Virus record (IMG/VR): IMGVR_UViG_2541047893_000008
DNA from: a virus
Taxonomy: Duplodnaviria; Heunggongvirae; Uroviricota; Caudoviricetes
DNA: 38,116 bases
Strand: one strand, 5' to 3'
Shown here piece by piece: positions 1 through 38,116 of the stretch. The notes beneath the pieces were generated by a model. That model had not been told where the DNA came from. It made no database searches and saw only the letters and a list, made by a program, of their open reading frames with translations. Both the position numbers and the translations under genes were made by a program. Within the stretch, counting starts at the first letter, position 1. Every line of letters starts with the position of its first letter.

Positions 1-1005
1 TTAATCCCCCGTGGACACTGCGTGGACACTTACGCCACCTTTCAGCGGATTAAGGGCCACCGCATCCTGCAGGTAATCCGGTGCAAAATGCGCATATGCC
101 ATTGTTTGCTGAATGGTTGCGTGACCAAGAATCTTCTGAAGCGCAATAATGTTTCCTCCGTTCATCACAAAATGGCTGGCGAACGTATGCCGCAGCACAT
201 GTGCAGCCTGGCCTTTTGGTAAATCGGGCTTAACTCTTTTCAGCGCCAGGCAGAATTCCCGGTACTTCACCTCAAACAAGCCGCCTGTTTCTCTGGTTTT
301 GATCGCCTCACAAACTGCCTGCGAAATTGGCACTGTTCTCTTCCGGCCATTTTTGGTTTCAAGAAACGTTACACGGTTATGAACTATCTGTTCACCACGA
401 AGCTTACAAGCTTCACTCCAGCGCGCCCCTGTGCTTAAACACAAAAGCGCAACACGCCAGTAGTCGCCCTCCAGTGTATCGAGCAATAGCGCCACTTCCT
501 TCTGTGACAGGAACGCCATTTCTCGTGGAGATACATAAAGAATAGAAATTCCCCTTACTGGATGTTCTGCATCCCAAAGACCTATTTTTTTCAGCACGGT
601 AAACATTCCGGATAACCGATTCATGTACCTGTTAGCAGATGACGGTTTCAATCCTTCAGCTATCTTTTGAGAACGCCACGCGATAATTTTCAGCTTATCA
701 AGATCCACAGCCTGCATATCAGCGCCAAGCTCATTGATTATGTTGCGCAGTTGTTTTCGGTCTTCTTCCGCCTTACGCCTGTGCTGGCCGTGATACATCC
801 ACCACAACTCAAGCAAATCATTTAGCGTTCGACGATCACGGTAGCCCTGTATATATTCCCGCTTTTCAGCGTTCGCCATGATGTAGCGTTCAGTGGCCAC
901 CGCTACCGATTTTTTGTCAAATACCTTACGCACGCGCTTTCCCTTGCGTCCGTTCGGCCTGATGTCCAGCAAATAACGACCATCTTCGAGCTTCTTAATC
1001 GACAT
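1..1005 (-). CDS. int: Tyrosine integrase (P2 Int family)
   Basis: ORF 1..1020 on the minus strand; likely start at the internal Met (MSIKKLEDGRY...), matching the P2 Int N-terminus from memory. C-terminal catalytic region has LRHTFA (H-x-x-R) and GHATIQQTMAYAHF (Tyr nucleophile) motifs. Confidence 0.9.
   Translation of the reverse strand: MSIKKLEDGRYLLDIRPNGRKGKRVRKVFDKKSVAVATERYIMANAEKREYIQGYRDRRTLNDLLELWWMYHGQHRRKAEEDRKQLRNIINELGADMQAVDLDKLKIIAWRSQKIAEGLKPSSANRYMNRLSGMFTVLKKIGLWDAEHPVRGISILYVSPREMAFLSQKEVALLLDTLEGDYWRVALLCLSTGARWSEACKLRGEQIVHNRVTFLETKNGRKRTVPISQAVCEAIKTRETGGLFEVKYREFCLALKRVKPDLPKGQAAHVLRHTFASHFVMNGGNIIALQKILGHATIQQTMAYAHFAPDYLQDAVALNPLKGGVSVHAVSTGD
11..29. repeat. attL core (direct repeat gtggacactgcgtggacac), overlaps 3-prime end of int
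   Basis: The 19-mer recurs at 36936-36954 with one mismatch (gtggtcactgcgtggacac), exactly bracketing the prophage gene set. It encodes the last residues (SVHAVS) of the integrase on the minus strand. Confidence 0.6.
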
Positions 1006-8015: not shown

Positions 8016-8975
8016 ATGAAAATTTGTATCGACGACGGCTCCACCAACATCAAGCTGGCATGGACTGAGAATGGCGAACGCCGCAACGCCATCAGCCCGA
8101 ACAGCTTCAAGTCGGAATGGTCTGCGCCGTTCGGTGGCATGCAGCCCGCGAACTACATGCTTGATGGCGTGCGCTATGGTTTTGATCCGGTCAGCGATCG
8201 CTTTGTCCAGACGACCGACACGCAATACCAGTACAGCGATGTGAATGTAATCGCCATTCATCACGCGCTGGTCAAATCAGGCATCACGCCACAAGAGGTG
8301 GATGTGGTTGTCACCCTGCCACTGAGCGAGTATTTCGAGACAAACGCACAGCCGGACATGGCCAACATCAACCGCAAAAAAGCGAACGTTATGCGCTCGG
8401 TGGAGTACCAGAACGGCGAAGCATTCACTATCCGTAACGTGCGGGTTATGCCTGAATCCATTCCGGCTGGCTTTAAAGCACTGGCTGACATGAGTCCGTT
8501 TGAATCCCTGCTGATTGTGGATTTAGGCGGAACCACGCTGGATGTGGCAAAGGTTCAAGGGCAACTGGCAGGTATCAGCCAGGTGTTTTGCGATCCACAC
8601 GTAGGCGTTTCCCTGATGGCCGATGCCGTACTGTCGGTGATGGCCACTAACGGTATGCGCACCAGTCACCACATCGCCAATACCATTATCGAACATCGCC
8701 ATGATGAAGCCTGGCTGCGCCAGCACATCCACAATGACGCGCATTACGCCAGCCTGATGGCGGTTATTCGTGAAAAGGAAGAAACACTGAAACAACGCGT
8801 GATCCGCGCGCTGGCGGTTTTTTCGGGTTACGGGCGGGTGATGGTTGTCGGTGGAGGGGCGGAGATTGTGGCACCCGCTATCCGCGAAGTCTGCGGAGTT
8901 AATGCGACTTTCATCGCGGACGGGGTGCCACAGTTTGCTCTGGTTAATGGGCTGTACGCAATGGACAAGGAGTAA
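8016..8975 (+). CDS. parM: ParM/StbA-like actin-fold partition ATPase
   Basis: 319-aa ORF with actin-fold signatures: phosphate-1 (IDDGSTNIKL), phosphate-2 (IVDLGGTTLDV), adenosine motif (VVGGGAEIV). N-terminus resembles plasmid R1 ParM from memory (MLVFIDDGSTNIKLQW...). RBS AAGGA. Confidence 0.88.
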   Translation: MKICIDDGSTNIKLAWTENGERRNAISPNSFKSEWSAPFGGMQPANYMLDGVRYGFDPVSDRFVQTTDTQYQYSDVNVIAIHHALVKSGITPQEVDVVVTLPLSEYFETNAQPDMANINRKKANVMRSVEYQNGEAFTIRNVRVMPESIPAGFKALADMSPFESLLIVDLGGTTLDVAKVQGQLAGISQVFCDPHVGVSLMADAVLSVMATNGMRTSHHIANTIIEHRHDEAWLRQHIHNDAHYASLMAVIREKEETLKQRVIRALAVFSGYGRVMVVGGGAEIVAPAIREVCGVNATFIADGVPQFALVNGLYAMDKE

Positions 8976-9377: not shown

Positions 9378-10214
9378 TCATGATGAAATTGCCGAAGTTT
9401 TTTTATCGTGCTGAAGTACCGCAAATGCCATTAAAACCTCAAGAGAATAGCGGCGATAATACTTAACAAAACCATAATAAAATACTCGGGATGCAGCAAT
9501 ACAAAACAAGAGAAGAAAACAAAAAGGTAACAGTCTGATATTTATATCTATTAAAAAGGATAGAAGGAGCAGGAACATAAGCAACCAGACTGAAGCGAGA
9601 AAAACAAATGTAATGTTTCTACAAAAACCATACAAAGCAACATAGTTTTGCATTTTCACCTGATGATTTTTAGAATGTTCATACACATAATGATAAGCAA
9701 GGCGAAAAAGATCGCCCCTCAAGCCCTTACGTCGATATAGCGTAGATAAAACATTTATATAACCATCTCGTATTTGCGGCCAAAAGACTTTAATAAGTAT
9801 AGAATGCAGTGTGGTTTTATGATGTTCTGCTTTATCAAAAGCTGATACAGGAAATAAAAAAACTCCACGAATAAAATTAACTATACTGAACTTAGTATTA
9901 TGTCGTTTTATTTTCAGGGAGCTTCTTTTAGAAAACAGATAAATTGAAGGATACCCAAGTTTACTGTTCATGTATTTTTCAATTAAACAGGATGATAGAA
10001 TAGATATGAAGTGACCTGAAATATATGATAGAACGATTAATACCACATATATAAATACACTTATTATTTCTTTATATTTCAGGATATGGTTAAGAATACC
10101 TTCTATATAAACAGGGTTAATTTCAATAGAAAACAAAAAAAGGATAAACAGGAATAACCCACCTGGAATTAGATAGCCCAAAAAGTCATAAAATGAAAAC
10201 GGATTCTGTGTCAC
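9378..10214 (-). CDS. Polytopic membrane protein of unknown function (278 aa), AT-rich cargo gene
   Basis: Several long hydrophobic segments; codon composition much more AT-rich than the phage backbone; second gene of a two-gene leftward operon; RBS GGGGGAAG. Confidence 0.7.
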   Translation of the reverse strand: MTQNPFSFYDFLGYLIPGGLFLFILFLFSIEINPVYIEGILNHILKYKEIISVFIYVVLIVLSYISGHFISILSSCLIEKYMNSKLGYPSIYLFSKRSSLKIKRHNTKFSIVNFIRGVFLFPVSAFDKAEHHKTTLHSILIKVFWPQIRDGYINVLSTLYRRKGLRGDLFRLAYHYVYEHSKNHQVKMQNYVALYGFCRNITFVFLASVWLLMFLLLLSFLIDINIRLLPFCFLLLFCIAASRVFYYGFVKYYRRYSLEVLMAFAVLQHDKKTSAISS

Positions 10215-10253
10215 ACTTCCCCCTGTGTTACTTGTAAATTAAAGGGTAAAACA

Positions 10254-10751
10254 TTATTTGTTTTTCCGTAAAGGATTAGCTTTCCATCTTCTTACTAACC
10301 ATTCGAATTCTTGATATGTAGTATCCGAATTAATGCTTTCTCTGATTGCTTTAATTAATGGCTCGGCAATATCATATGTCTCTACAACTGTTGTGTAAGA
10401 TGTTCTTTTTATCATTTTTTCATCATAAATACCTTCACGAATACTTACAGCAACTCGCTCGTAAAAATTTAAAATATATTGAAATTTTCGGCGCTCGGCC
10501 ATTTCTTCATCTGTTATTATGCAACCATCACAAGGAAAAACATAAGAACGAAATGATTTGCCTGAACGATGCACTTGTTTCAGGGTATGCAATGACTCTA
10601 TATATTGCATATCTTGCCGACTCTCAAAAAGAAAGTTGGCCGTTTGAGTTTTTTTTGCGGTACGCACATTGTAGATAATGGTTCCAATGGCAACCAAAAC
10701 GCCAAGCAGAACAATAGTATTGCTGATGATTTGTAGTGTTATTGGGTTCAT
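10254..10751 (-). CDS. N-terminally membrane-anchored protein of unknown function (165 aa), AT-rich cargo gene
   Basis: Single N-terminal TM helix (ITLQIISNTIVLLGVLVAIGTIIY) followed by a charged soluble domain; first gene of the two-gene module; no family recognised. Confidence 0.7.
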   Translation of the reverse strand: MNPITLQIISNTIVLLGVLVAIGTIIYNVRTAKKTQTANFLFESRQDMQYIESLHTLKQVHRSGKSFRSYVFPCDGCIITDEEMAERRKFQYILNFYERVAVSIREGIYDEKMIKRTSYTTVVETYDIAEPLIKAIRESINSDTTYQEFEWLVRRWKANPLRKNK

Positions 10752-33457: not shown

Positions 33458-33614
33458 AGCTTCAGCCCCTTGTATCCGTTAAATGATTCGGCAACAATCA
33501 TCACCCACCACGCGCGTAATCTCACCCCTGCGCCGTTCTCCCGACCCGGCGACAACAAAAAGCAGTAACCCCCTCCGCACGCACATGCGACCATGCCGCA
33601 CAGGGAGGGAACAG

Positions 33615-34724
33615 ATGACCGACACCACCATGCAATTGCTCAGTCAGGGCACAGACCCCGTGAAAATGCCGGATTTTGATATTCTCGCGGAGGGTAAAAC
33701 GCTGTCAGGCGTGGCAGAGCGCCTGATGAGCCTGTCACTGACCGACAACCGGGGATTTGAGGCGGACCAGCTCACCATCATGCTGGATGATGCAGATGGT
33801 CAGTTGCAGCTACCGCCACGGGGCGCGCACCTGACGGTTCTCATTGGCTGGAAAGGAGAACCGCTGACAGAAAAAGGCACTTACATTGTTGATGAAATCG
33901 CTCACGAAGGACCGCCGGACAGGCTGACTGTTTCAGCCAGAAGCGCAGATTTTCGGGATGAATTTAACGTTAAACGTGAGGTGTCCTGGCATGATGTGAC
34001 CATTGAGCGTGTGGTATCCGCCATCGCTCATCGGTATGGTCTGAAACCGCAAATCAGCGAAATGCTGATGGATATCGAAATCGACCACGCCGACCAGACC
34101 GAAGAAAGCGACATGTCCTTCCTTACGCGCATGGCGGAAATGCTGGGCGCAATCACCACGGTAAAAAGCGGTAATCTGTTATTCATTATGCCAGGCGGTG
34201 GCGTGAACGCACAGGGCCAGCCGTTGCCATCGTTCGCCATCACGCGCAGCAGTGGCGATCGCCATCAGTTCCGCATTGCTGACCGCGAGGCGTATACGGG
34301 GGTACGCGCTTACTGGCTTGATCTTAATTACGGGAAAAAGAAAAAAGTCAGCGTGAAACGCCGCAAACCGCCAAAACCCAAAAAGGAGAAAAGCAGCAGC
34401 CGTGAAGGTGATTATATGGAAGGCGCGGAAGGCAATGTGTTTGTGTTACGCAAGACTTATCAGAACGAGCAGGCAGCAAGACGCGCAGCGGCGGCAAAGT
34501 GGCAGCAGCTACAACGCGAAGCCGCATCATTCTCCATCACGCTGGCACGTGGTCGTGCAGAACTCTACCCCGAAATGCATGGCACGGTAACAGGATTTAA
34601 AAGCGAGATTGATAATCAGGACTGGATTATTGCAAAAGCCGAGCACACCATCGATAACAGCGGCTTTACCACGCAGCTTGAGCTTGAGGCAAAAATCCCG
34701 GAATGGATAGCAGAAACAGAGTGA
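33615..34724 (+). CDS. D: Tail protein D (late gene D, gpD family)
   Basis: Start at internal ATG (MTDTTMQLL...) preceded by GGGAGGG; blocks (SLTDNRGFEAD, TIMLDDADG, TYIVDEIAHEGPPD, SWHD, FTTQLELE) match P2 D. On the opposite strand to FI-U. Confidence 0.88.
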   Translation: MTDTTMQLLSQGTDPVKMPDFDILAEGKTLSGVAERLMSLSLTDNRGFEADQLTIMLDDADGQLQLPPRGAHLTVLIGWKGEPLTEKGTYIVDEIAHEGPPDRLTVSARSADFRDEFNVKREVSWHDVTIERVVSAIAHRYGLKPQISEMLMDIEIDHADQTEESDMSFLTRMAEMLGAITTVKSGNLLFIMPGGGVNAQGQPLPSFAITRSSGDRHQFRIADREAYTGVRAYWLDLNYGKKKKVSVKRRKPPKPKKEKSSSREGDYMEGAEGNVFVLRKTYQNEQAARRAAAAKWQQLQREAASFSITLARGRAELYPEMHGTVTGFKSEIDNQDWIIAKAEHTIDNSGFTTQLELEAKIPEWIAETE

Positions 34725-34766
34725 GCAACTTAGAATAGCAGCAGCACCACGTTAAGGGAGGTCGCT

Positions 34767-35027
34767 ATGTTCCGTTGTCCGCTTTGTGGCGCATCTGCCC
34801 GTATCCGCACCAGTCGTCCGGAAAATGATTCAAACACCGTGCGGCAAAAGTATTACCAGTGTAACAACCTGGAATGCGGCGTATGCTTCTCAACACTGGA
34901 AGCTTTCCATAAATTCACATCAAAACACGCCTCCGGTGTTCACTCTTCAGAAGGTATCCCGTGGCATGAGCTGCCAGCTTCACACAGGGGAAACAATCAG
35001 ATGAGTTTGCCTTTATCTCAGAATTAA
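34767..35027 (+). CDS. ogr: Ogr/Delta-family zinc-finger late transcription activator
   Basis: 86 aa; N-terminal MFRCPLCGA...RTSR...YYQCNNLECG with four Cys spaced as in P2 Ogr; last canonical gene before the right end. Confidence 0.8.
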   Translation: MFRCPLCGASARIRTSRPENDSNTVRQKYYQCNNLECGVCFSTLEAFHKFTSKHASGVHSSEGIPWHELPASHRGNNQMSLPLSQN

Positions 35028-35218
35028 CAGGCAGAATTGCCGGAGTAACAAAAAAGCGATAGATTACGCGCGGGTGCCTTTCGGCTGATGGTCGGAGGGA
35101 ATACCCGAAGGCCAGATGTGGAAAGGCCCCGGAAAACATTTCTGTTTAACCGAGGCCCTAACATATCTACCTTAAGCAAGTGATAGGTTAGCGCCTCTCC
35201 AACAAAGGAGCAAGCGCT

Positions 35219-35359
35219 ATGTCGCAAAAATCGCTTACGGCCATCACGTTCTGCGTGACGGTAATCCTCATCATCTGGATGCTGCACGGTTCGCTGTGTG
35301 AAATACGGATGAGCTTTTGGGGAGCGGAGTTTGCGGCGTTCTTACAGTGTAAGCAGTAA
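35219..35359 (+). CDS. Hok/Gef-family-like small membrane toxin (candidate type I toxin)
   Basis: 46-aa ORF with RBS AGGAG 7 nt upstream: short N-terminus, one TM helix (AITFCVTVILIIWML), then the SLCEIR motif and EFAAF segment characteristic of Hok/Gef/PndA proteins. Followed by a 9-bp-stem hairpin. Confidence 0.55.
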   Translation: MSQKSLTAITFCVTVILIIWMLHGSLCEIRMSFWGAEFAAFLQCKQ

Positions 35360-35621
35360 GGAAACCGCGACGGGGGAGTAATCCCCCGTCAATCGGTTGC
35401 TAGGGTAAGGTCGATAAGGCACCCTATCTCACAGCTCTAAATGCAAAAATTCCATGAAACTGTGGGATTTTTGCATCACATACTGATACAGACCAGCCCT
35501 TCTATATGCCTCACTCTATACCAGCTAATCAATTGACACTTATCAATAAAAATAAATCTGATAAAATCAAAATGTTTTGTAACAAATATCAACTCGTATT
35601 AATCCAAAGGAGGCGGATTAC

Positions 35622-35954
35622 ATGGCATTAATCAAATGTCCTGAATGCCAGAAAGAGGTGAGCGATTCAGCATTGTATTGCCCTGCTTGTGGTAAACAAC
35701 TGCAAAAACTTAAGCGTTCATTTTTTGGACGGATCATTAAGTGGGTTTTTATATTATTTAATATTTTTATGATCTATACGCTTTTAGTTGGAATAGGAGG
35801 CACTAGTGAAATAATAAATAATGCCACATCCGATGCCGAAAAAGCCGGTGCAGTTATTGGTACAGGCTTAGGTTTAATTACCATTGGAAGCTTATGGGTT
35901 ATTGGCGATATCATTATCGGAATTTTAGTATTTCTTACTAAACCAAAGGGATAA
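35622..35954 (+). CDS. Zinc-ribbon membrane protein (CPxC...CPxCG plus two TM helices), AT-rich cargo
   Basis: 110 aa; N-terminal Cys4 ribbon (CPECQ...CPACG), two hydrophobic helices; strong RBS AAAGGAGG; TTGACA -35-like hexamer about 85 bp upstream; AT-rich. Confidence 0.65.
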   Translation: MALIKCPECQKEVSDSALYCPACGKQLQKLKRSFFGRIIKWVFILFNIFMIYTLLVGIGGTSEIINNATSDAEKAGAVIGTGLGLITIGSLWVIGDIIIGILVFLTKPKG

Positions 35955-35958
35955 TAAA

Positions 35959-36852
35959 ATGAAAAATATAATTTTTTCTATAGGTGCATCATTTATATCA
36001 ATTAGTGTACTGCCTGTTCACGCAGCAACTGAACATAAGAACTTCAATGCAGTACTTCAGTGCCGAGCAATAGAAAATAATAAAGACAGACTTTCTTGTT
36101 ACGATAAGTCAATACAACCGACTCGAACGAAAGTTGCTGAAAAATTCGAAAGCAGAGATCAATGCCCTGATGAGAAAGATGATGATAGACGTTTATCTTG
36201 TTATGATCGTTTCTTTTCTCCAACATTTACTCCATCTGTAAACTCAAAATCTAAAACGGAAAAGCCAGTAACAACAGAGGCTCAGCAACCAAATCTTTCT
36301 GAGATATCTAAATGTCGTGCAGAAAATGATAAAGAAGCCAGACTAAACTGCTACGATAAACTATTCCCACAGGATAAAATCGCTCAAGCTGAATCAAAAT
36401 TAGAGAAAGCCACAGATGTAGGAAAATGGCACACATCCATTACTACATCGCCAATTGATGATTCGAAAAATGTAATTTTATCGTTAGAAAGTGATGATTA
36501 TATCAGAACTCCATTTGGAGAAGCGGTTACTCCTACTCTTTTTATAGCTTGCCGAGAAAAGAAAACCGAAGTATTTCTTAGTTGGGATGTATATTTAGGC
36601 CTTGAACAAACCAGCATGCTTTATCGCCTTGATAAACAGAAAGCAGTTGAGCGAAACTGGCTAGTATCTACAGATACAAAGGCTGTTTTTTATAAAGGTA
36701 ATGACATTGATTTCATCCGAAAACTAGCCAACTCAAGCAAAATGTATACAAAAATAACGCCTTATAATGAGAGCCCCGTAAGTGCAACTTTCAATTTAAA
36801 CGGCCTGTCAAACGCGCTAAAACCGCTTCAAGCTGCTTGTAACTGGAAATAG
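35959..36852 (+). CDS. Secreted/periplasmic protein with three Cys-containing repeats, AT-rich cargo
   Basis: 297 aa; signal peptide (MKNIIFSIGASFISISVLPVHA); three copies of a roughly 35-aa motif C-x7-9-(D/E)xRL(S/N)CYD(K/R)-x-F; start 4 nt after the zinc-ribbon gene stop. Confidence 0.7.
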   Translation: MKNIIFSIGASFISISVLPVHAATEHKNFNAVLQCRAIENNKDRLSCYDKSIQPTRTKVAEKFESRDQCPDEKDDDRRLSCYDRFFSPTFTPSVNSKSKTEKPVTTEAQQPNLSEISKCRAENDKEARLNCYDKLFPQDKIAQAESKLEKATDVGKWHTSITTSPIDDSKNVILSLESDDYIRTPFGEAVTPTLFIACREKKTEVFLSWDVYLGLEQTSMLYRLDKQKAVERNWLVSTDTKAVFYKGNDIDFIRKLANSSKMYTKITPYNESPVSATFNLNGLSNALKPLQAACNWK

Positions 36853-36882
36853 TATTAAATCATGTGGCTTAGCCACAATCAC

Positions 36883-36922
36883 AGATAACACAAAGCCCGT
36901 GAAAACGGGCTTTGTGTTATCT
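36883..36922. terminator. Strong terminator-like palindrome (17-bp perfect stem) closing the right-end cargo operon
   Basis: agataacacaaagcccg-tgaaaa-cgggctttgtgttatct, 30 bp after the stop of the 297-aa gene and 14 bp before the attR core. Confidence 0.6.
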
Positions 36923-36935
36923 GTAACTCGAAAAT

Positions 36936-36954
36936 GTGGTCACTGCGTGGACAC
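36936..36954. repeat. attR core (direct repeat of attL core)
   Basis: 18/19 identity with 11-29, located after the last prophage cargo gene and a strong terminator hairpin, before the host flk-like gene. Confidence 0.6.
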
Positions 36955-37120
36955 GCGCTGACATAAATCCTTTTACATCAATAAATTAAGTCATCATTTT
37001 TTTCATCAACAAGGATTTTCACGTTTGTGTTACCTGTATGAGACGAGAGTTAACCAGACAAGTGTGCCATAATCTCGCGGCCAGGCATACTTGCGAAGAT
37101 TTCAGGTATAAGGATACGTA

Positions 37121-38116
37121 ATGATACAACCTATTTCCGGCCCTCCTCCTGGGCAACCACCAGGTCAGGGAGATAACCTGCCGTCTGGCGCGGGCAATCA
37201 GCCTTTATCCAGTCAGCAACGTACTTCGCTGGAAAGCTTAATGACGAAAGTGACCTCACTGACGCAACAACAAAGAGCAGAACTGTGGGCGGGTATCAGG
37301 CACGATATTGGTCTGTCGGGAGATTCACCGCTGCTTTCGCGTCACTTCCCTGCCGCTGAGCATAATCTGGCGCAACGTCTGTTGGCCGCGCAGAAAAGCC
37401 ATTCTGCCCGCCAGCTTTTAGCGCAATTAGGGGAGTATTTACGTCTGGGGAATAATCGTCAGGCGGTCACGGATTATATCCGTCATAACTTTGGTCAGAC
37501 GCCGCTGAATCAGCTCTCACCGGAGCAATTAAAAACCATTCTCACCCTGTTGCAGGAAGGGAAGATGGTTATTCCGCAACCACAGCAGCGCGAGGCGACC
37601 GACCGTCCTTTATTACCGGCGGAGCACAATGCGCTCAAACAGCTGGTGACCAAACTTGCGGCAGCAACGGGGGAACCCAGCAAACAGATCTGGCAATCGA
37701 TGCTGGAACTTTCCGGGGTGAAAGATGGCGAGTTAATTCCAGCGAAACTGTTTAACCATCTGGTGACCTGGCTACAGGCGCGTCAGACGCTAAGCCAGCA
37801 AAATACGCCGACGCTTGAATCACTACAGATGGCGCTGAAACAACCTTTAGATGCCAGTGAACTGGCGGCGTTATCGGCATATATCCAGCAAAAATATGGC
37901 CTTTCTGCGCAATCATCGCTTTCTTCTGCCCAGGCCGAGGATATTCTTAACCAGCTTTATCAACGGCGGGTTAAAGGGATTGAGCCGCGTGATATGCAAC
38001 CGCTGCTTAATCCTTTTCCACCGATGATGGACACGTTGCAAAATATGGCAACGCGTCCCGCGCTGTGGATACTGTTAGTCGCGATTATCCTGATGCTGGT
38101 CTGGCTGGTTCGTTAA
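37121..38116 (+). CDS. flk: Host gene: flagellar regulator Flk-like protein (C-terminally membrane-anchored)
   Basis: 331-aa ORF outside the prophage; Pro/Gln-rich N-terminus (PPPGQPPGQGDNLPSG) and single C-terminal TM anchor (ALWILLVAIILMLVWLVR), as I recall for enterobacterial Flk. Stop at the last base of the window. Confidence 0.75.
   Translation: MIQPISGPPPGQPPGQGDNLPSGAGNQPLSSQQRTSLESLMTKVTSLTQQQRAELWAGIRHDIGLSGDSPLLSRHFPAAEHNLAQRLLAAQKSHSARQLLAQLGEYLRLGNNRQAVTDYIRHNFGQTPLNQLSPEQLKTILTLLQEGKMVIPQPQQREATDRPLLPAEHNALKQLVTKLAAATGEPSKQIWQSMLELSGVKDGELIPAKLFNHLVTWLQARQTLSQQNTPTLESLQMALKQPLDASELAALSAYIQQKYGLSAQSSLSSAQAEDILNQLYQRRVKGIEPRDMQPLLNPFPPMMDTLQNMATRPALWILLVAIILMLVWLVR

What the first reader, a model, noticed from the sequence alone, without database searches (positions are those of the whole stretch)
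35401..36922. AT-rich right-end cargo pair: zinc-ribbon membrane protein plus secreted protein with three Cys-containing repeats
The two genes sit between ogr and attR, where P2-like phages carry lysogenic-conversion genes. They are AT-rich, tightly coupled, have a strong RBS and a 17-bp-stem terminator, and are preceded by a 10-bp perfect inverted repeat (atgcaaaaat ... atttttgcat, about 35441-35476) that could be an operator. The secreted protein repeats a C-x8-(D/E)xRL(S/N)CYD motif three times, which I cannot assign to a family. Candidate envelope-acting exclusion or conversion module.
Basis: partly seen in the sequence, partly recalled or inferred. Interest (0 to 1): 0.65.

Follow-up and report, generated by a model that had tools for sequence, protein, structure and literature searches.

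The report
Prophage VasI-like envelope gene pair
The last two genes of this P2-like E. coli prophage encode an inner-membrane zinc-ribbon protein and an exported relative of the poorly understood type VI secretion accessory protein VasI/TagO; the pair recurs in many temperate phages away from any secretion system, and what it does has not been tested.

Summary
Two AT-rich (35% vs 52% GC), 4-nt-spaced genes (35622-35954 and 35959-36852) lie inside a P2-like prophage. They sit between ogr/hok and a 20-bp att core (37000-37019) in the 5' end of pdxB.

Both proteins can be assigned to families.
- Gene 1 is a C4 zinc ribbon plus a two-helix membrane hairpin remotely related to the division/Rcs-activating protein DrpB.

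The pairing is functional. It is conserved at the ogr-att end in several genera, and elsewhere the two parts are fused into single proteins.

No type VI secretion core gene lies near any of 120 related loci. In other phages the VasI gene sits in repressor/integrase operons.

The phiSM phage paper already lists this gene as "VasI family" cargo, and function is unknown for the whole family.

My best reading is a lysogen-expressed envelope module that works independently of type VI secretion, probably protective. This is inferred, not shown. Interest is moderate.

The parts
35441..35476 (.). 14-nt-arm inverted repeat at the left edge of the AT-rich cassette; role unknown
   Evidence: arms 93% complementary, 8-nt gap. 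(fold z -5.4). (1 of 2000 shuffles matches it); it stays next to the Zn-ribbon gene when a 1.7-kb insertion separates the cassette from hok (L073/L074), and it is absent in more distant relatives.
35540..35567 (+). Sigma-70-type promoter-like site: TTATCA, 16 nt, TG-n-TAAAAT (extended -10)
   Evidence: 9/12 consensus match with TG; the same TT(G/A)TCA-16-TAAAA(T/A) arrangement is conserved upstream of the orthologous gene in Pectobacterium, Klebsiella and Dickeya prophages, where an ogr terminator directly precedes it. Activity was not tested.
35606..35613 (+). Ribosome-binding site AAAGGAGG, 8 nt before the ATG
   Evidence: Read directly from the sequence.
35622..35954 (+). Gene 1: 110-aa inner-membrane protein. 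An N-terminal C4 zinc ribbon (C6, C9, C20, C23; predicted cytoplasmic) is followed by a DrpB-like two-helix hairpin (about aa 34-67 and 71-105) ending in the invariant T106-x-P108.
   Evidence: PF13240 31.8 bits, above its cut-off of 25. NF038392 DrpB E 2.6e-4, below cut-off. Precomputed PF28000 DrpB 'weak' hits on orthologues. hhalign to E. coli DrpB E 1e-3. BLASTP of DrpB to family members down to E 8e-6. AF2 model with two long helices, pLDDT 73. Charge distribution. phrog_6586.
35959..36852 (+). Gene 2: 297-aa exported VasI/TagO-family protein
   Evidence: PF11319 E 4.6e-25. TIGR03360 75.9 bits, below its equivalog cut-off of 124.2. 26% identity to the E. coli T6SS-2 TagO, E 3e-11. phrog_1848. 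AF2 mean pLDDT 78, above 90 in the C-terminal domain.
35959..36024 (+). Predicted Sec signal peptide (MKNIIFSIGASFISISVLPVHA / AT). There is no lipobox.
   Evidence: Read from the translation. The cleavage site is my inference from the A-x-A rule; no predictor was available.
36061..36105 (+). Cys motif copy 1 (aa 35-49, CRAIENNKDRLSCYD)
   Evidence: Modelled as a helix-turn-helix hairpin, pLDDT about 86-88.
36163..36207 (+). Cys motif copy 2 (aa 69-83, CPDEKDDDRRLSCYD)
36313..36357 (+). Cys motif copy 3 (aa 119-133, CRAENDKEARLNCYD). This is the copy that matches the start of the Pfam VasI model and is invariant in all relatives.
   Evidence: profile positions 1-184 aligned to aa 118-296. (C119, R128, L129, C131 and D133 invariant).
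36406..36849 (+). IalB/VasI-type beta-sandwich domain (aa ~150-297), with conserved C198 and C294
36881..36924 (.). 20-bp-stem hairpin between the stop codon and the att arm. Probable transcription stop or insulator; it has no U-tract.
   Evidence: Not called by the terminator scan. Only chance-level Rfam matches.
36936..36954 (+). Probable integrase arm-type site GTGGTCACTGCGTGGACAC; its partner lies at 11-29, next to int
   Evidence: The assignment as an arm site is inference.
37000..37019 (.). attR core, 20-bp direct repeat with attL; marks the right end of the prophage
35072..35359 (+). Neighbouring hok/sok type I toxin-antitoxin locus. A separate unit, not part of the pair.
   Evidence: PF01848 30.1 bits. 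Rfam sok 47.9 bits, below the gathering score of 59. Relatives in other genera have the pair without hok.

Best explanation
The two genes form a self-contained accessory cassette ('moron') of a P2-like temperate phage. The cassette builds a two-part module in the host envelope, and this module does not belong to a type VI secretion system.

Gene 1 probably inserts into the inner membrane as a helical hairpin, with a small C4 zinc ribbon and the conserved T-K-P-K tail in the cytoplasm.

Gene 2 is probably exported by Sec. It would be oxidised into three disulfide-locked helical hairpins strung on flexible linkers, followed by an IalB/VasI beta-sandwich. It would work at the periplasmic face of the inner membrane together with gene 1.

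The cassette is probably transcribed in the lysogen from its own sigma-70 promoter and changes an envelope property of the host to the prophage's benefit. The effect I think most likely is protection against things that must cross the envelope: superinfecting phages, and possibly contractile injection devices. The periplasmic protein, held near the membrane by its partner, would bind or block an envelope component that incoming particles need.

Shown here: the cassette's position, composition and domain families, the conserved pairing and fusions, and the absence of type VI secretion genes nearby.

Inferred: topology, disulfides, physical interaction, expression in lysogens and the protective phenotype.
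For: Inside the prophage and packaged:
- Empty-site genomes align only from window 37000, and the 20-bp att core is repeated at attL.
- The genes are present in deposited phage genomes, including the experimentally active phiSM.

A cassette with foreign features:
- 35% GC against 52%.
- A promoter-like site conserved across four genera.
- A strong terminal hairpin.

The two proteins act as one unit:
- The order ogr, Zn-ribbon gene, VasI gene is conserved in Escherichia, Klebsiella, Enterobacter, Raoultella, Pectobacterium, Dickeya, Brenneria and Salmonella prophages, in most of 80 viral contigs.
- Single-polypeptide fusions exist. Zn ribbon + TM + VasI is found in L057, L037 and L050.
- DrpB-like hairpin + third TM + VasI is found in P0276 and P0295.
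- A different zinc-ribbon two-helix protein (TM2 family) accompanies VasI in another E. coli prophage.

Independence from type VI secretion:
- tblastn with 12 E. coli T6SS core proteins found nothing within about 6 kb of 120 related loci.
- Neighbours of distant relatives are mostly HTH regulators and integrases.
- The score falls below the NCBIfam equivalog cut-off.
- Homologues occur in phages of Brucella and Pasteurella.
- phiSM lysogenises E. coli K-12 without harm.

Lysogenic expression, from context:
- In other P2-like contigs the VasI gene sits in a repressor (HTH_3), VasI, integrase operon with 10-13-nt gaps.
- In Brucella phage BiPBO1 and Klebsiella phage ST11-VIM1phi8.1 it directly follows the repressor gene.

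Envelope location:
- Signal peptide and conserved Cys pairs.
- Two-helix membrane model and positive-inside charge pattern.
Against: - No experiment bears on function. The whole VasI/TagO family is listed as 'unknown' in a 2026 review (PMC13584744).
- There is no PADLOC hit and no similarity to any known exclusion protein.
- Some phages carry the VasI gene without a membrane partner (L025/L110, L111, L132), so the partner is not always needed.
- The membrane protein has close stand-alone chromosomal homologues in Pantoea and Haemophilus. That fits a general physiological role as well as it fits a defensive one.
- The fold also occurs in virulent T4-like phages, which do not make lysogens.
- The promoter is only a consensus match. 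The hairpin lacks a U-tract.
- The phiSM paper reports immunity of lysogens only to phiSM itself, and phiNP still infects phiSM lysogens. Any exclusion is therefore not universal.
Confidence: 0.38

Rival explanations
1. Envelope-signalling or division modulator. The DrpB-like membrane protein, with the VasI-like protein as its periplasmic partner, acts on host envelope physiology. One route would be triggering the Rcs (capsule) or Psp stress pathways, as overproduced E. coli DrpB does. Another would be acting at the divisome. Any phage or T6SS resistance would then be an indirect result of capsule or stress induction.
For: - DrpB homology: NF038392 E 2.6e-4; precomputed PF28000 DrpB hits on orthologues; hhalign E 1e-3; BLASTP of E. 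coli DrpB to family members down to E 8e-6; and a profile of Zn-less ~98-aa members scores DrpB with p 1e-5.
- The invariant T106 and P108 align with DrpB T89 and P91. T89A abolishes Rcs activation by DrpB (PMC11709261).
- Multicopy DrpB activates Rcs through the RcsC periplasmic domain and also induces Psp.
- Stand-alone chromosomal homologues exist in Pantoea and Haemophilus.
- The family is very large, 7279 cluster representatives, which fits a general membrane function.
Against: - The homology is remote and below every curated cut-off (21.3 bits against 50).
- The DrpB effects on Rcs are multicopy phenotypes with no known single-copy role.
- phiSM lysogens of K-12 grew normally, and the passages read of that paper do not describe mucoid colonies.
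- This reading gives no role to the VasI domain, which is the more widely phage-borne of the two parts.
Confidence: 0.2
2. True type VI secretion accessory supplied in trans, as the RefSeq name 'TagO' and the phiSM paper imply. The phage-borne VasI would join the host's T6SS and raise its killing efficiency, giving lysogens a competitive edge.
For: - The protein matches PF11319 over the whole domain and is 26% identical to the TagO of the E. coli T6SS-2 cluster.
- V. cholerae VasI (VCA0118) is exported. It is dispensable for Hcp secretion but needed for full killing of amoebae and E. coli (PMC3166118).
- C. rodentium, the natural phiSM host, has T6SSs (PMC6456863).
- P2 tails and T6SSs are evolutionarily related machines.
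Against: - The score is below the NCBIfam equivalog cut-off.
- No T6SS core gene lies near any of 120 related loci.
- The conserved partner is a membrane protein that was not seen among the products annotated in the one T6SS cluster inspected, Sakai T6SS-2.
- Relatives are carried by phages of Brucella and Pasteurella. To my knowledge these genera have no T6SS; this was not tested here.
- The gene is embedded in repressor/integrase operons.
- The phage lysogenises T6SS-free K-12.
Confidence: 0.12
3. Host-interaction (virulence) factor of the IalB type. The exported protein would reach the cell surface or medium and promote adhesion to, or invasion of, eukaryotic cells, a classical lysogenic conversion.
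For: - IalB mutants invade erythrocytes about 10-fold less well (PMC6299047).
- The V. cholerae authors proposed VasI as a possible adhesin or effector.
- The cassette is found in human and animal E. coli isolates.
Against: - The mechanism and even the location of IalB are unresolved.
- The Pfam IalB score is below its cut-off.
- There is no lipobox or other outer-membrane-targeting feature.
- Fused versions tether the domain to the inner membrane.
- Relatives occur in plant-associated and marine bacteria and in virulent phages.
Confidence: 0.07
4. Passenger DNA with no current function for phage or host. The cassette would have been acquired by imprecise excision or recombination and would be kept only by linkage to the prophage end and the hok/sok addiction locus.
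For: - AT-rich foreign composition.
- Position next to att, where imprecise excision picks up host DNA.
- A Pantoea chromosomal homologue of gene 1 lies directly beside a P2-like integrase (L006).
Against: - Both ORFs are intact, and the pair is kept across many genera at 40-70% protein identity with invariant Cys, Trp and Gly positions.
- The promoter-like site is conserved.
- The two parts are independently fused elsewhere.
- These are signs of purifying selection on a working unit.
Confidence: 0.04

Closest known systems
T6SS-associated VasI / TagO (V. cholerae VCA0118; E. coli T6SS-2 TagO; Pfam PF11319, TIGR03360)
   Same: Same Pfam domain over its full length. Both have an N-terminal export signal, the C-x8-RLxCYD motif directly before the beta domain, and a conserved C-terminal Cys-x-Trp. 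26% identity to E. coli TagO.
   Different: Encoded in a prophage, not in a T6SS cluster. Scores below the equivalog cut-off. The motif is triplicated. It is paired with a zinc-ribbon membrane protein. Relatives sit in lysogeny operons. The T6SS protein's own function is unknown.
IalB, invasion-associated locus B protein of Bartonella (PDB 3dtd; PF06776)
   Different: 17% identity and a Pfam score below cut-off (20.4 against 22.1). IalB lacks the triplicated Cys hairpins and has no zinc-ribbon partner gene known to me (that last point was not tested here).
DrpB (YedR), E. coli divisome-associated two-helix membrane protein and multicopy Rcs/Psp activator
   Same: Roughly 80-residue two-helix hairpin. 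It shares an R/K-x-S-x-x-G-K...W-x-F entry motif and a C-terminal T-(R/K)-P motif. The residue equivalent to DrpB T89 is invariant.
   Different: The similarity is remote and below curated cut-offs. The phage protein adds an N-terminal C4 zinc ribbon and is coupled to a periplasmic partner. No division or Rcs data exist for it.
Phage morons and superinfection-exclusion pairs (for example T4 Imm + Sp, HK97 gp15, P22 SieA; P2's own tin, old and Z/fun)
   Same: Non-essential cassette at a prophage end, with foreign composition and its own promoter-like and terminator-like signals. The products are membrane and periplasmic. Relatives sit next to repressor genes.
   Different: No sequence or profile similarity to any of these, and no PADLOC model. 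No exclusion phenotype has been tested. The resemblance is organisational only and rests on general knowledge of these systems.

Membership tests
T6SS-associated VasI/TagO | Pfam PF11319 domain above the gathering score | tested here: met
   88.8 bits against a cut-off of 26.5; profile positions 1-184 aligned to aa 118-296.
T6SS-associated VasI/TagO | Meets the NCBIfam equivalog model TIGR03360 (same function as the T6SS protein) | tested here: not met
   75.9 bits against a cut-off of 124.2. The genuine E. coli T6SS-2 TagO scores 179 bits on Pfam.
T6SS-associated VasI/TagO | Encoded within or beside a T6SS gene cluster | tested here: not met
   The window is a P2-like prophage. tblastn with 12 T6SS core proteins found nothing in 120 related loci. 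No T6SS family appears among the top 25 Pfam families of 145 neighbouring proteins.
T6SS-associated VasI/TagO | Contributes to T6SS-dependent killing without being needed for Hcp secretion | not testable with these tools
   Defined experimentally for VCA0118 (PMC3166118).
IalB family (PF06776) | Sequence match above the Pfam gathering score | tested here: not met
   20.4 bits against 22.1, E 5.8e-4.
IalB family (PF06776) | IalB beta-sandwich fold | tested here: met
DrpB family (NF038392 / PF28000) | Profile match above the curated cut-off | tested here: not met
   NF038392 21.3 bits against 50, E 2.6e-4. Precomputed PF28000 hits on orthologues are marked weak.
DrpB family (NF038392 / PF28000) | Two-helix membrane hairpin of about 80 residues with the conserved entry motif and C-terminal T-(R/K)-P | tested here: met
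   AF2 helices 34-67 and 71-105. Alignment to DrpB residues 11-93 with T106/P108 opposite T89/P91. These positions are invariant in 32 relatives. BLASTP and profile links to DrpB.
DrpB family (NF038392 / PF28000) | Septal localisation, ftsEX suppression, Rcs activation | not testable with these tools
   Experimental properties of E. coli DrpB (PMC7648144, listed but not read; PMC11709261).
Phage moron / lysogenic-conversion cassette | Lies inside the prophage, outside the conserved phage gene set, next to att | tested here: met
   (att core at 37000-37019). Related P2-like prophages have the slot filled differently or shortened.
Phage moron / lysogenic-conversion cassette | Own promoter and terminator, and deviating base composition | tested here: inconclusive
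   Composition is clearly deviant. A promoter-like site is conserved in four genera. The hairpin is strong but has no U-tract. No transcript data are available.
Phage moron / lysogenic-conversion cassette | Expressed from the prophage in the lysogen | not testable with these tools
   Only contextual support: the VasI gene sits in repressor-VasI-integrase operons and directly after repressor genes in other phages.
Known anti-phage defence or exclusion systems | Match to a PADLOC model or to a characterised exclusion protein | tested here: not met
   No PADLOC family for either protein at E <= 1. The PHROG families 6586 and 1848 are of 'unknown function'.

The most novel reading that the evidence does not exclude
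The zinc-ribbon/DrpB-like membrane protein and the VasI/IalB-fold periplasmic protein together would constitute a widespread envelope system that has not been recognised as a unit. Temperate phages would express it from lysogeny operons to protect the lysogen against envelope-piercing machines (phage tails, T6SS spikes). The T6SS-linked VasI/TagO and Bartonella IalB would then be specialised offshoots of the same periplasmic binding module. Solving the phage version in E. coli K-12 would reveal what VasI/TagO does.
Probability: 0.12. Interest if true: 0.8.

Novelty: new variant of a known kind. Interest (0 to 1): 0.45.

Why it matters
VasI/TagO has been an unexplained T6SS accessory protein since 2011, and IalB an unexplained virulence factor since the 1990s.

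This work shows three things:
- A sister group of the same domain is common cargo of temperate phages.
- That group is linked, by conserved gene order and by fusion, to a zinc-ribbon/DrpB-like membrane protein.
- It occurs away from any T6SS.

Together these points suggest the domain has a general periplasmic role that is not specific to T6SS.

The version found here is easy to study. phiSM, which carries this gene at 99.7% amino-acid identity, and PhiR44_2 (99.0%) grow on laboratory E. coli, and phiSM forms K-12 lysogens. Simple deletion, plaque, competition and reporter assays could therefore assign a function. They could also correct a database name ('TagO') that currently implies T6SS involvement.

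Tried and rejected
- PADLOC scan of both proteins and hok: no hit.
- Sequence search of the PDB: only chance-level matches, E 0.088 and above.
- Foldseek against AFDB50: library unavailable.
- BFVD fold search: only uncharacterised phage proteins.
- Terminator scan: did not call the 3' hairpin because it has no U-tract.
- Rfam on 34700-37200: only a sub-threshold sok match and chance hits on the hairpin.
- attL: not in the window, which starts inside int. It was recovered from a public lysogen genome instead.
The wider distribution of the motif remains untested.
- VasI remnants next to the stand-alone Pantoea and Haemophilus Zn-ribbon genes: none found.
- Inverted repeat as part of hok/sok: rejected, because it stays with the cassette when an insertion separates hok.
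- Inverted repeat as an operator: neither supported nor excluded.
Full report
**1. What is in the sequence**

The window is a P2-like prophage. It has an integrase at 1-1020 on the minus strand, cox and a C-like repressor, a gene-A replication region, structural genes, gpD at 33483-34724 and ogr at 34767-35027.

After ogr comes a hok/sok-type toxin locus: hok at 35219-35359 (PF01848) and a sok-like RNA match at 35072-35229.

The two ORFs of the finding follow, at 35622-35954 (110 aa) and 35959-36852 (297 aa), 4 nt apart on the + strand.
- They are 35.7% and 36.6% GC, against 52.3% for the rest of the prophage.
- AGGAGG lies 8 nt before the first ATG.
- The 3' hairpin has a 20-bp stem (36881-36924; z -11) but no U-tract.
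- The inverted repeat has 14-nt arms (35441-35476). Only 1 of 2000 shuffles gives a repeat as good.

**2. The pair lies inside the prophage**

- Prophage-free E. coli genomes, including K-12, align with the window only from position 37000 onwards.
- In a complete genome that matches window 34700-37200 at 100%, the 20-mer TTTTCATCAACAAGGATTTT at 37000-37019 is repeated next to the integrase at the other prophage end.
- A 19-mer next to int (11-29) recurs with one mismatch at 36936-36954. This looks like a pair of integrase arm sites.
- The same two genes are present in deposited phage genomes: Citrobacter phage phiSM (99.7% amino-acid identity), PhiR44_2, 500465-2 and Xuanwuvirus P884B11, and at 64% identity in Klebsiella phages.
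- About 236 of 5426 complete E. coli genomes carry the region.

**3. What the secreted protein is**

It belongs to the VasI/TagO family: PF11319, E 4.6e-25, with the profile aligned end to end on aa 118-296.

The 'unassignable' C-x8-RLxCYD unit is the start of that family's model. It occurs three times here (aa 35-49, 69-83 and 119-133). In 92 relatives it occurs once (43), twice (19) or three times (29), and the domain-proximal copy is invariant.

The AlphaFold model is confident (pLDDT above 90) for a C-terminal beta-sandwich at aa ~150-297. It shows each Cys unit as a helix-turn-helix hairpin, with disordered linkers between them.

The N-terminus reads as a Sec signal peptide with a VHA/A cleavage site and no lipobox. 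The conserved Cys pairs fit a periplasmic, oxidised protein. Both points are inference.

**4. What the membrane protein is**

It has a C4 zinc ribbon (PF13240, above cut-off) followed by two long helices. Positive charges flank the hairpin and the loop is acidic, which suggests that both ends are cytoplasmic.

The hairpin is remotely related to the E. coli division protein DrpB:
- NF038392 gives E 2.6e-4, below its cut-off.
- Precomputed PF28000 'DrpB' hits occur on several orthologues.
- hhalign gives E 1e-3.
- E. coli DrpB hits family members by BLASTP down to E 8e-6.

The invariant T106 and P108 align with DrpB T89 and P91. T89 is required for Rcs activation by multicopy DrpB (PMC11709261).

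An exhaustive profile search shows that this is a large family, with 7279 cluster representatives at E <= 1e-3. Members occur with or without the zinc ribbon.

**5. The two genes are a functional unit**

The order ogr, Zn-ribbon gene, VasI gene, prophage end is conserved in prophages of many Enterobacterales. It is seen in most of 80 viral contigs and in several reference genomes.

Elsewhere the parts are fused into one protein:
- Zinc ribbon + TM + VasI domain in Spectribacter (L057), a Desulfobulbaceae MAG (L037) and another MAG (L050).
- DrpB-like hairpin + third TM + VasI domain in P0276 and P0295.

The fusions keep the expected topology, with the VasI domain outside the cytoplasmic membrane.

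A second E. coli prophage type pairs VasI with a different zinc-ribbon two-helix protein of the TM2 family.

The partner is not obligatory. Some phages carry VasI alone. The membrane protein also exists as a stand-alone chromosomal gene in Pantoea (between cueR and copA) and in Haemophilus.

**6. It is not part of a type VI secretion system**

- The protein scores below the NCBIfam equivalog cut-off (75.9 against 124.2).
- It is only 26% identical to the TagO of the E. coli T6SS-2 cluster.
- No T6SS core gene was found near any of 120 related loci.
- Neighbours of the more distant relatives are enriched in HTH regulators and integrases.
- Homologues occur in phages of Brucella, Pasteurella, Labrenzia and Klebsiella.
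- phiSM lysogenises K-12 strains with no growth cost (PMC6456863).

**7. Evidence on when it is expressed**

A sigma-70-like site (TTATCA, 16 nt, TG-n-TAAAAT; 35540-35567) is conserved upstream of the Zn-ribbon gene in four genera. In three of them a terminator after ogr directly precedes it.

In other P2-like contigs the VasI gene lies between the repressor (HTH_3) and the integrase, with gaps of 10-13 nt to the integrase gene (L132, L133, L138).

In Brucella phage BiPBO1 and Klebsiella phage ST11-VIM1phi8.1 it directly follows the repressor gene.

These are positions typical of genes made in the lysogen. No transcript data were available.

**8. What it does**

No experiment addresses this.
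- T6SS VasI (VCA0118) is exported. It is dispensable for Hcp secretion but needed for full killing (PMC3166118).
- A 2026 review still lists TagO/VasI as unknown.
- The mechanism and location of IalB are unresolved.

I therefore commit only to a layered statement.
- Well supported: a lysogen-type, T6SS-independent, two-part envelope module.
- Inferred, and favoured at about 0.4 together with the first layer: it protects the lysogen at the envelope, by superinfection exclusion or resistance to piercing devices.
- Main rival (0.2): the DrpB-like protein modulates envelope stress signalling or division.
- Other rivals: the database-implied T6SS accessory role (0.12), an IalB-like virulence role (0.07) and functionless passenger DNA (0.04).

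**9. Novelty**

The gene is already named TagO in RefSeq and is listed as 'T6SS VasI family protein' cargo of phiSM.

New here:
- The conserved partnership with a zinc-ribbon/DrpB-like protein, including the fusions.
- The lack of any T6SS linkage.
- The lysogeny-operon contexts.
- The variable 1-3 copy number of the Cys hairpin.
- The exact att structure.

I rate it a new variant of a known kind, of moderate interest.

Noticed in passing
window 37000-37022; L142 1032-1240: The prophage att core lies in the first codons of pdxB (native GTG start at 37022-37020, minus strand). In the lysogen, the pdxB copy at attL has lost its start codon and upstream region and is annotated 8 aa shorter. Its expression must therefore depend on phage-side sequence.
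   Followed up: partly
window 35072-35359: A hok/sok-type type I toxin-antitoxin locus sits between ogr and the cassette (Hok PF01848; sok RF01794 at 47.9 bits, below gathering). It is absent from the orthologous prophages of other genera.
   Followed up: partly
window 9378-10751 (minus strand): A second AT-rich island (about 31% GC) holds a 278-aa ORF with no Pfam match and a 165-aa DUF4760 protein. It sits where P2 carries old/tin-type accessory genes and is a possible defence cargo.
   Followed up: partly
window 8016-8975: A ParM/StbA-type actin-like segregation protein is encoded in the early region of the prophage.
   Followed up: no
window 11-29 and 36936-36954: A 19-mer GTGGACACTGCGTGGACAC next to int recurs with one mismatch just left of the att core. 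These are probably integrase arm-type binding sites.
   Followed up: no
L006 8001-9846 (Pantoea chromosome): A stand-alone chromosomal homologue of the Zn-ribbon/DrpB-like gene (69% identity) lies between cueR and copA. In one genome a P2-like integrase sits about 500 nt downstream, in the orientation expected if imprecise excision once moved such a gene to the ogr-att end of a phage.
   Followed up: partly
P0243, P0266: Other members of the DrpB-like hairpin family carry a third TM and different C-terminal periplasmic domains. By eye these have LprI/DUF1311-like Cys motifs. The hairpin may therefore be a general membrane platform for periplasmic domains.
   Followed up: no
L012 8001-9126 (E. 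coli prophage next to ytfP): A different P2-like prophage has ogr, hok and a Zn-ribbon + TM2-domain protein, followed by a two-motif VasI gene on the opposite strand. This is a second, non-orthologous pairing of a zinc-ribbon membrane protein with VasI.
   Followed up: partly
L073/L074 3905-5484: In some E. coli relatives a ~1.6-1.7-kb insertion separates hok from the cassette. Its content was not examined.
   Followed up: no
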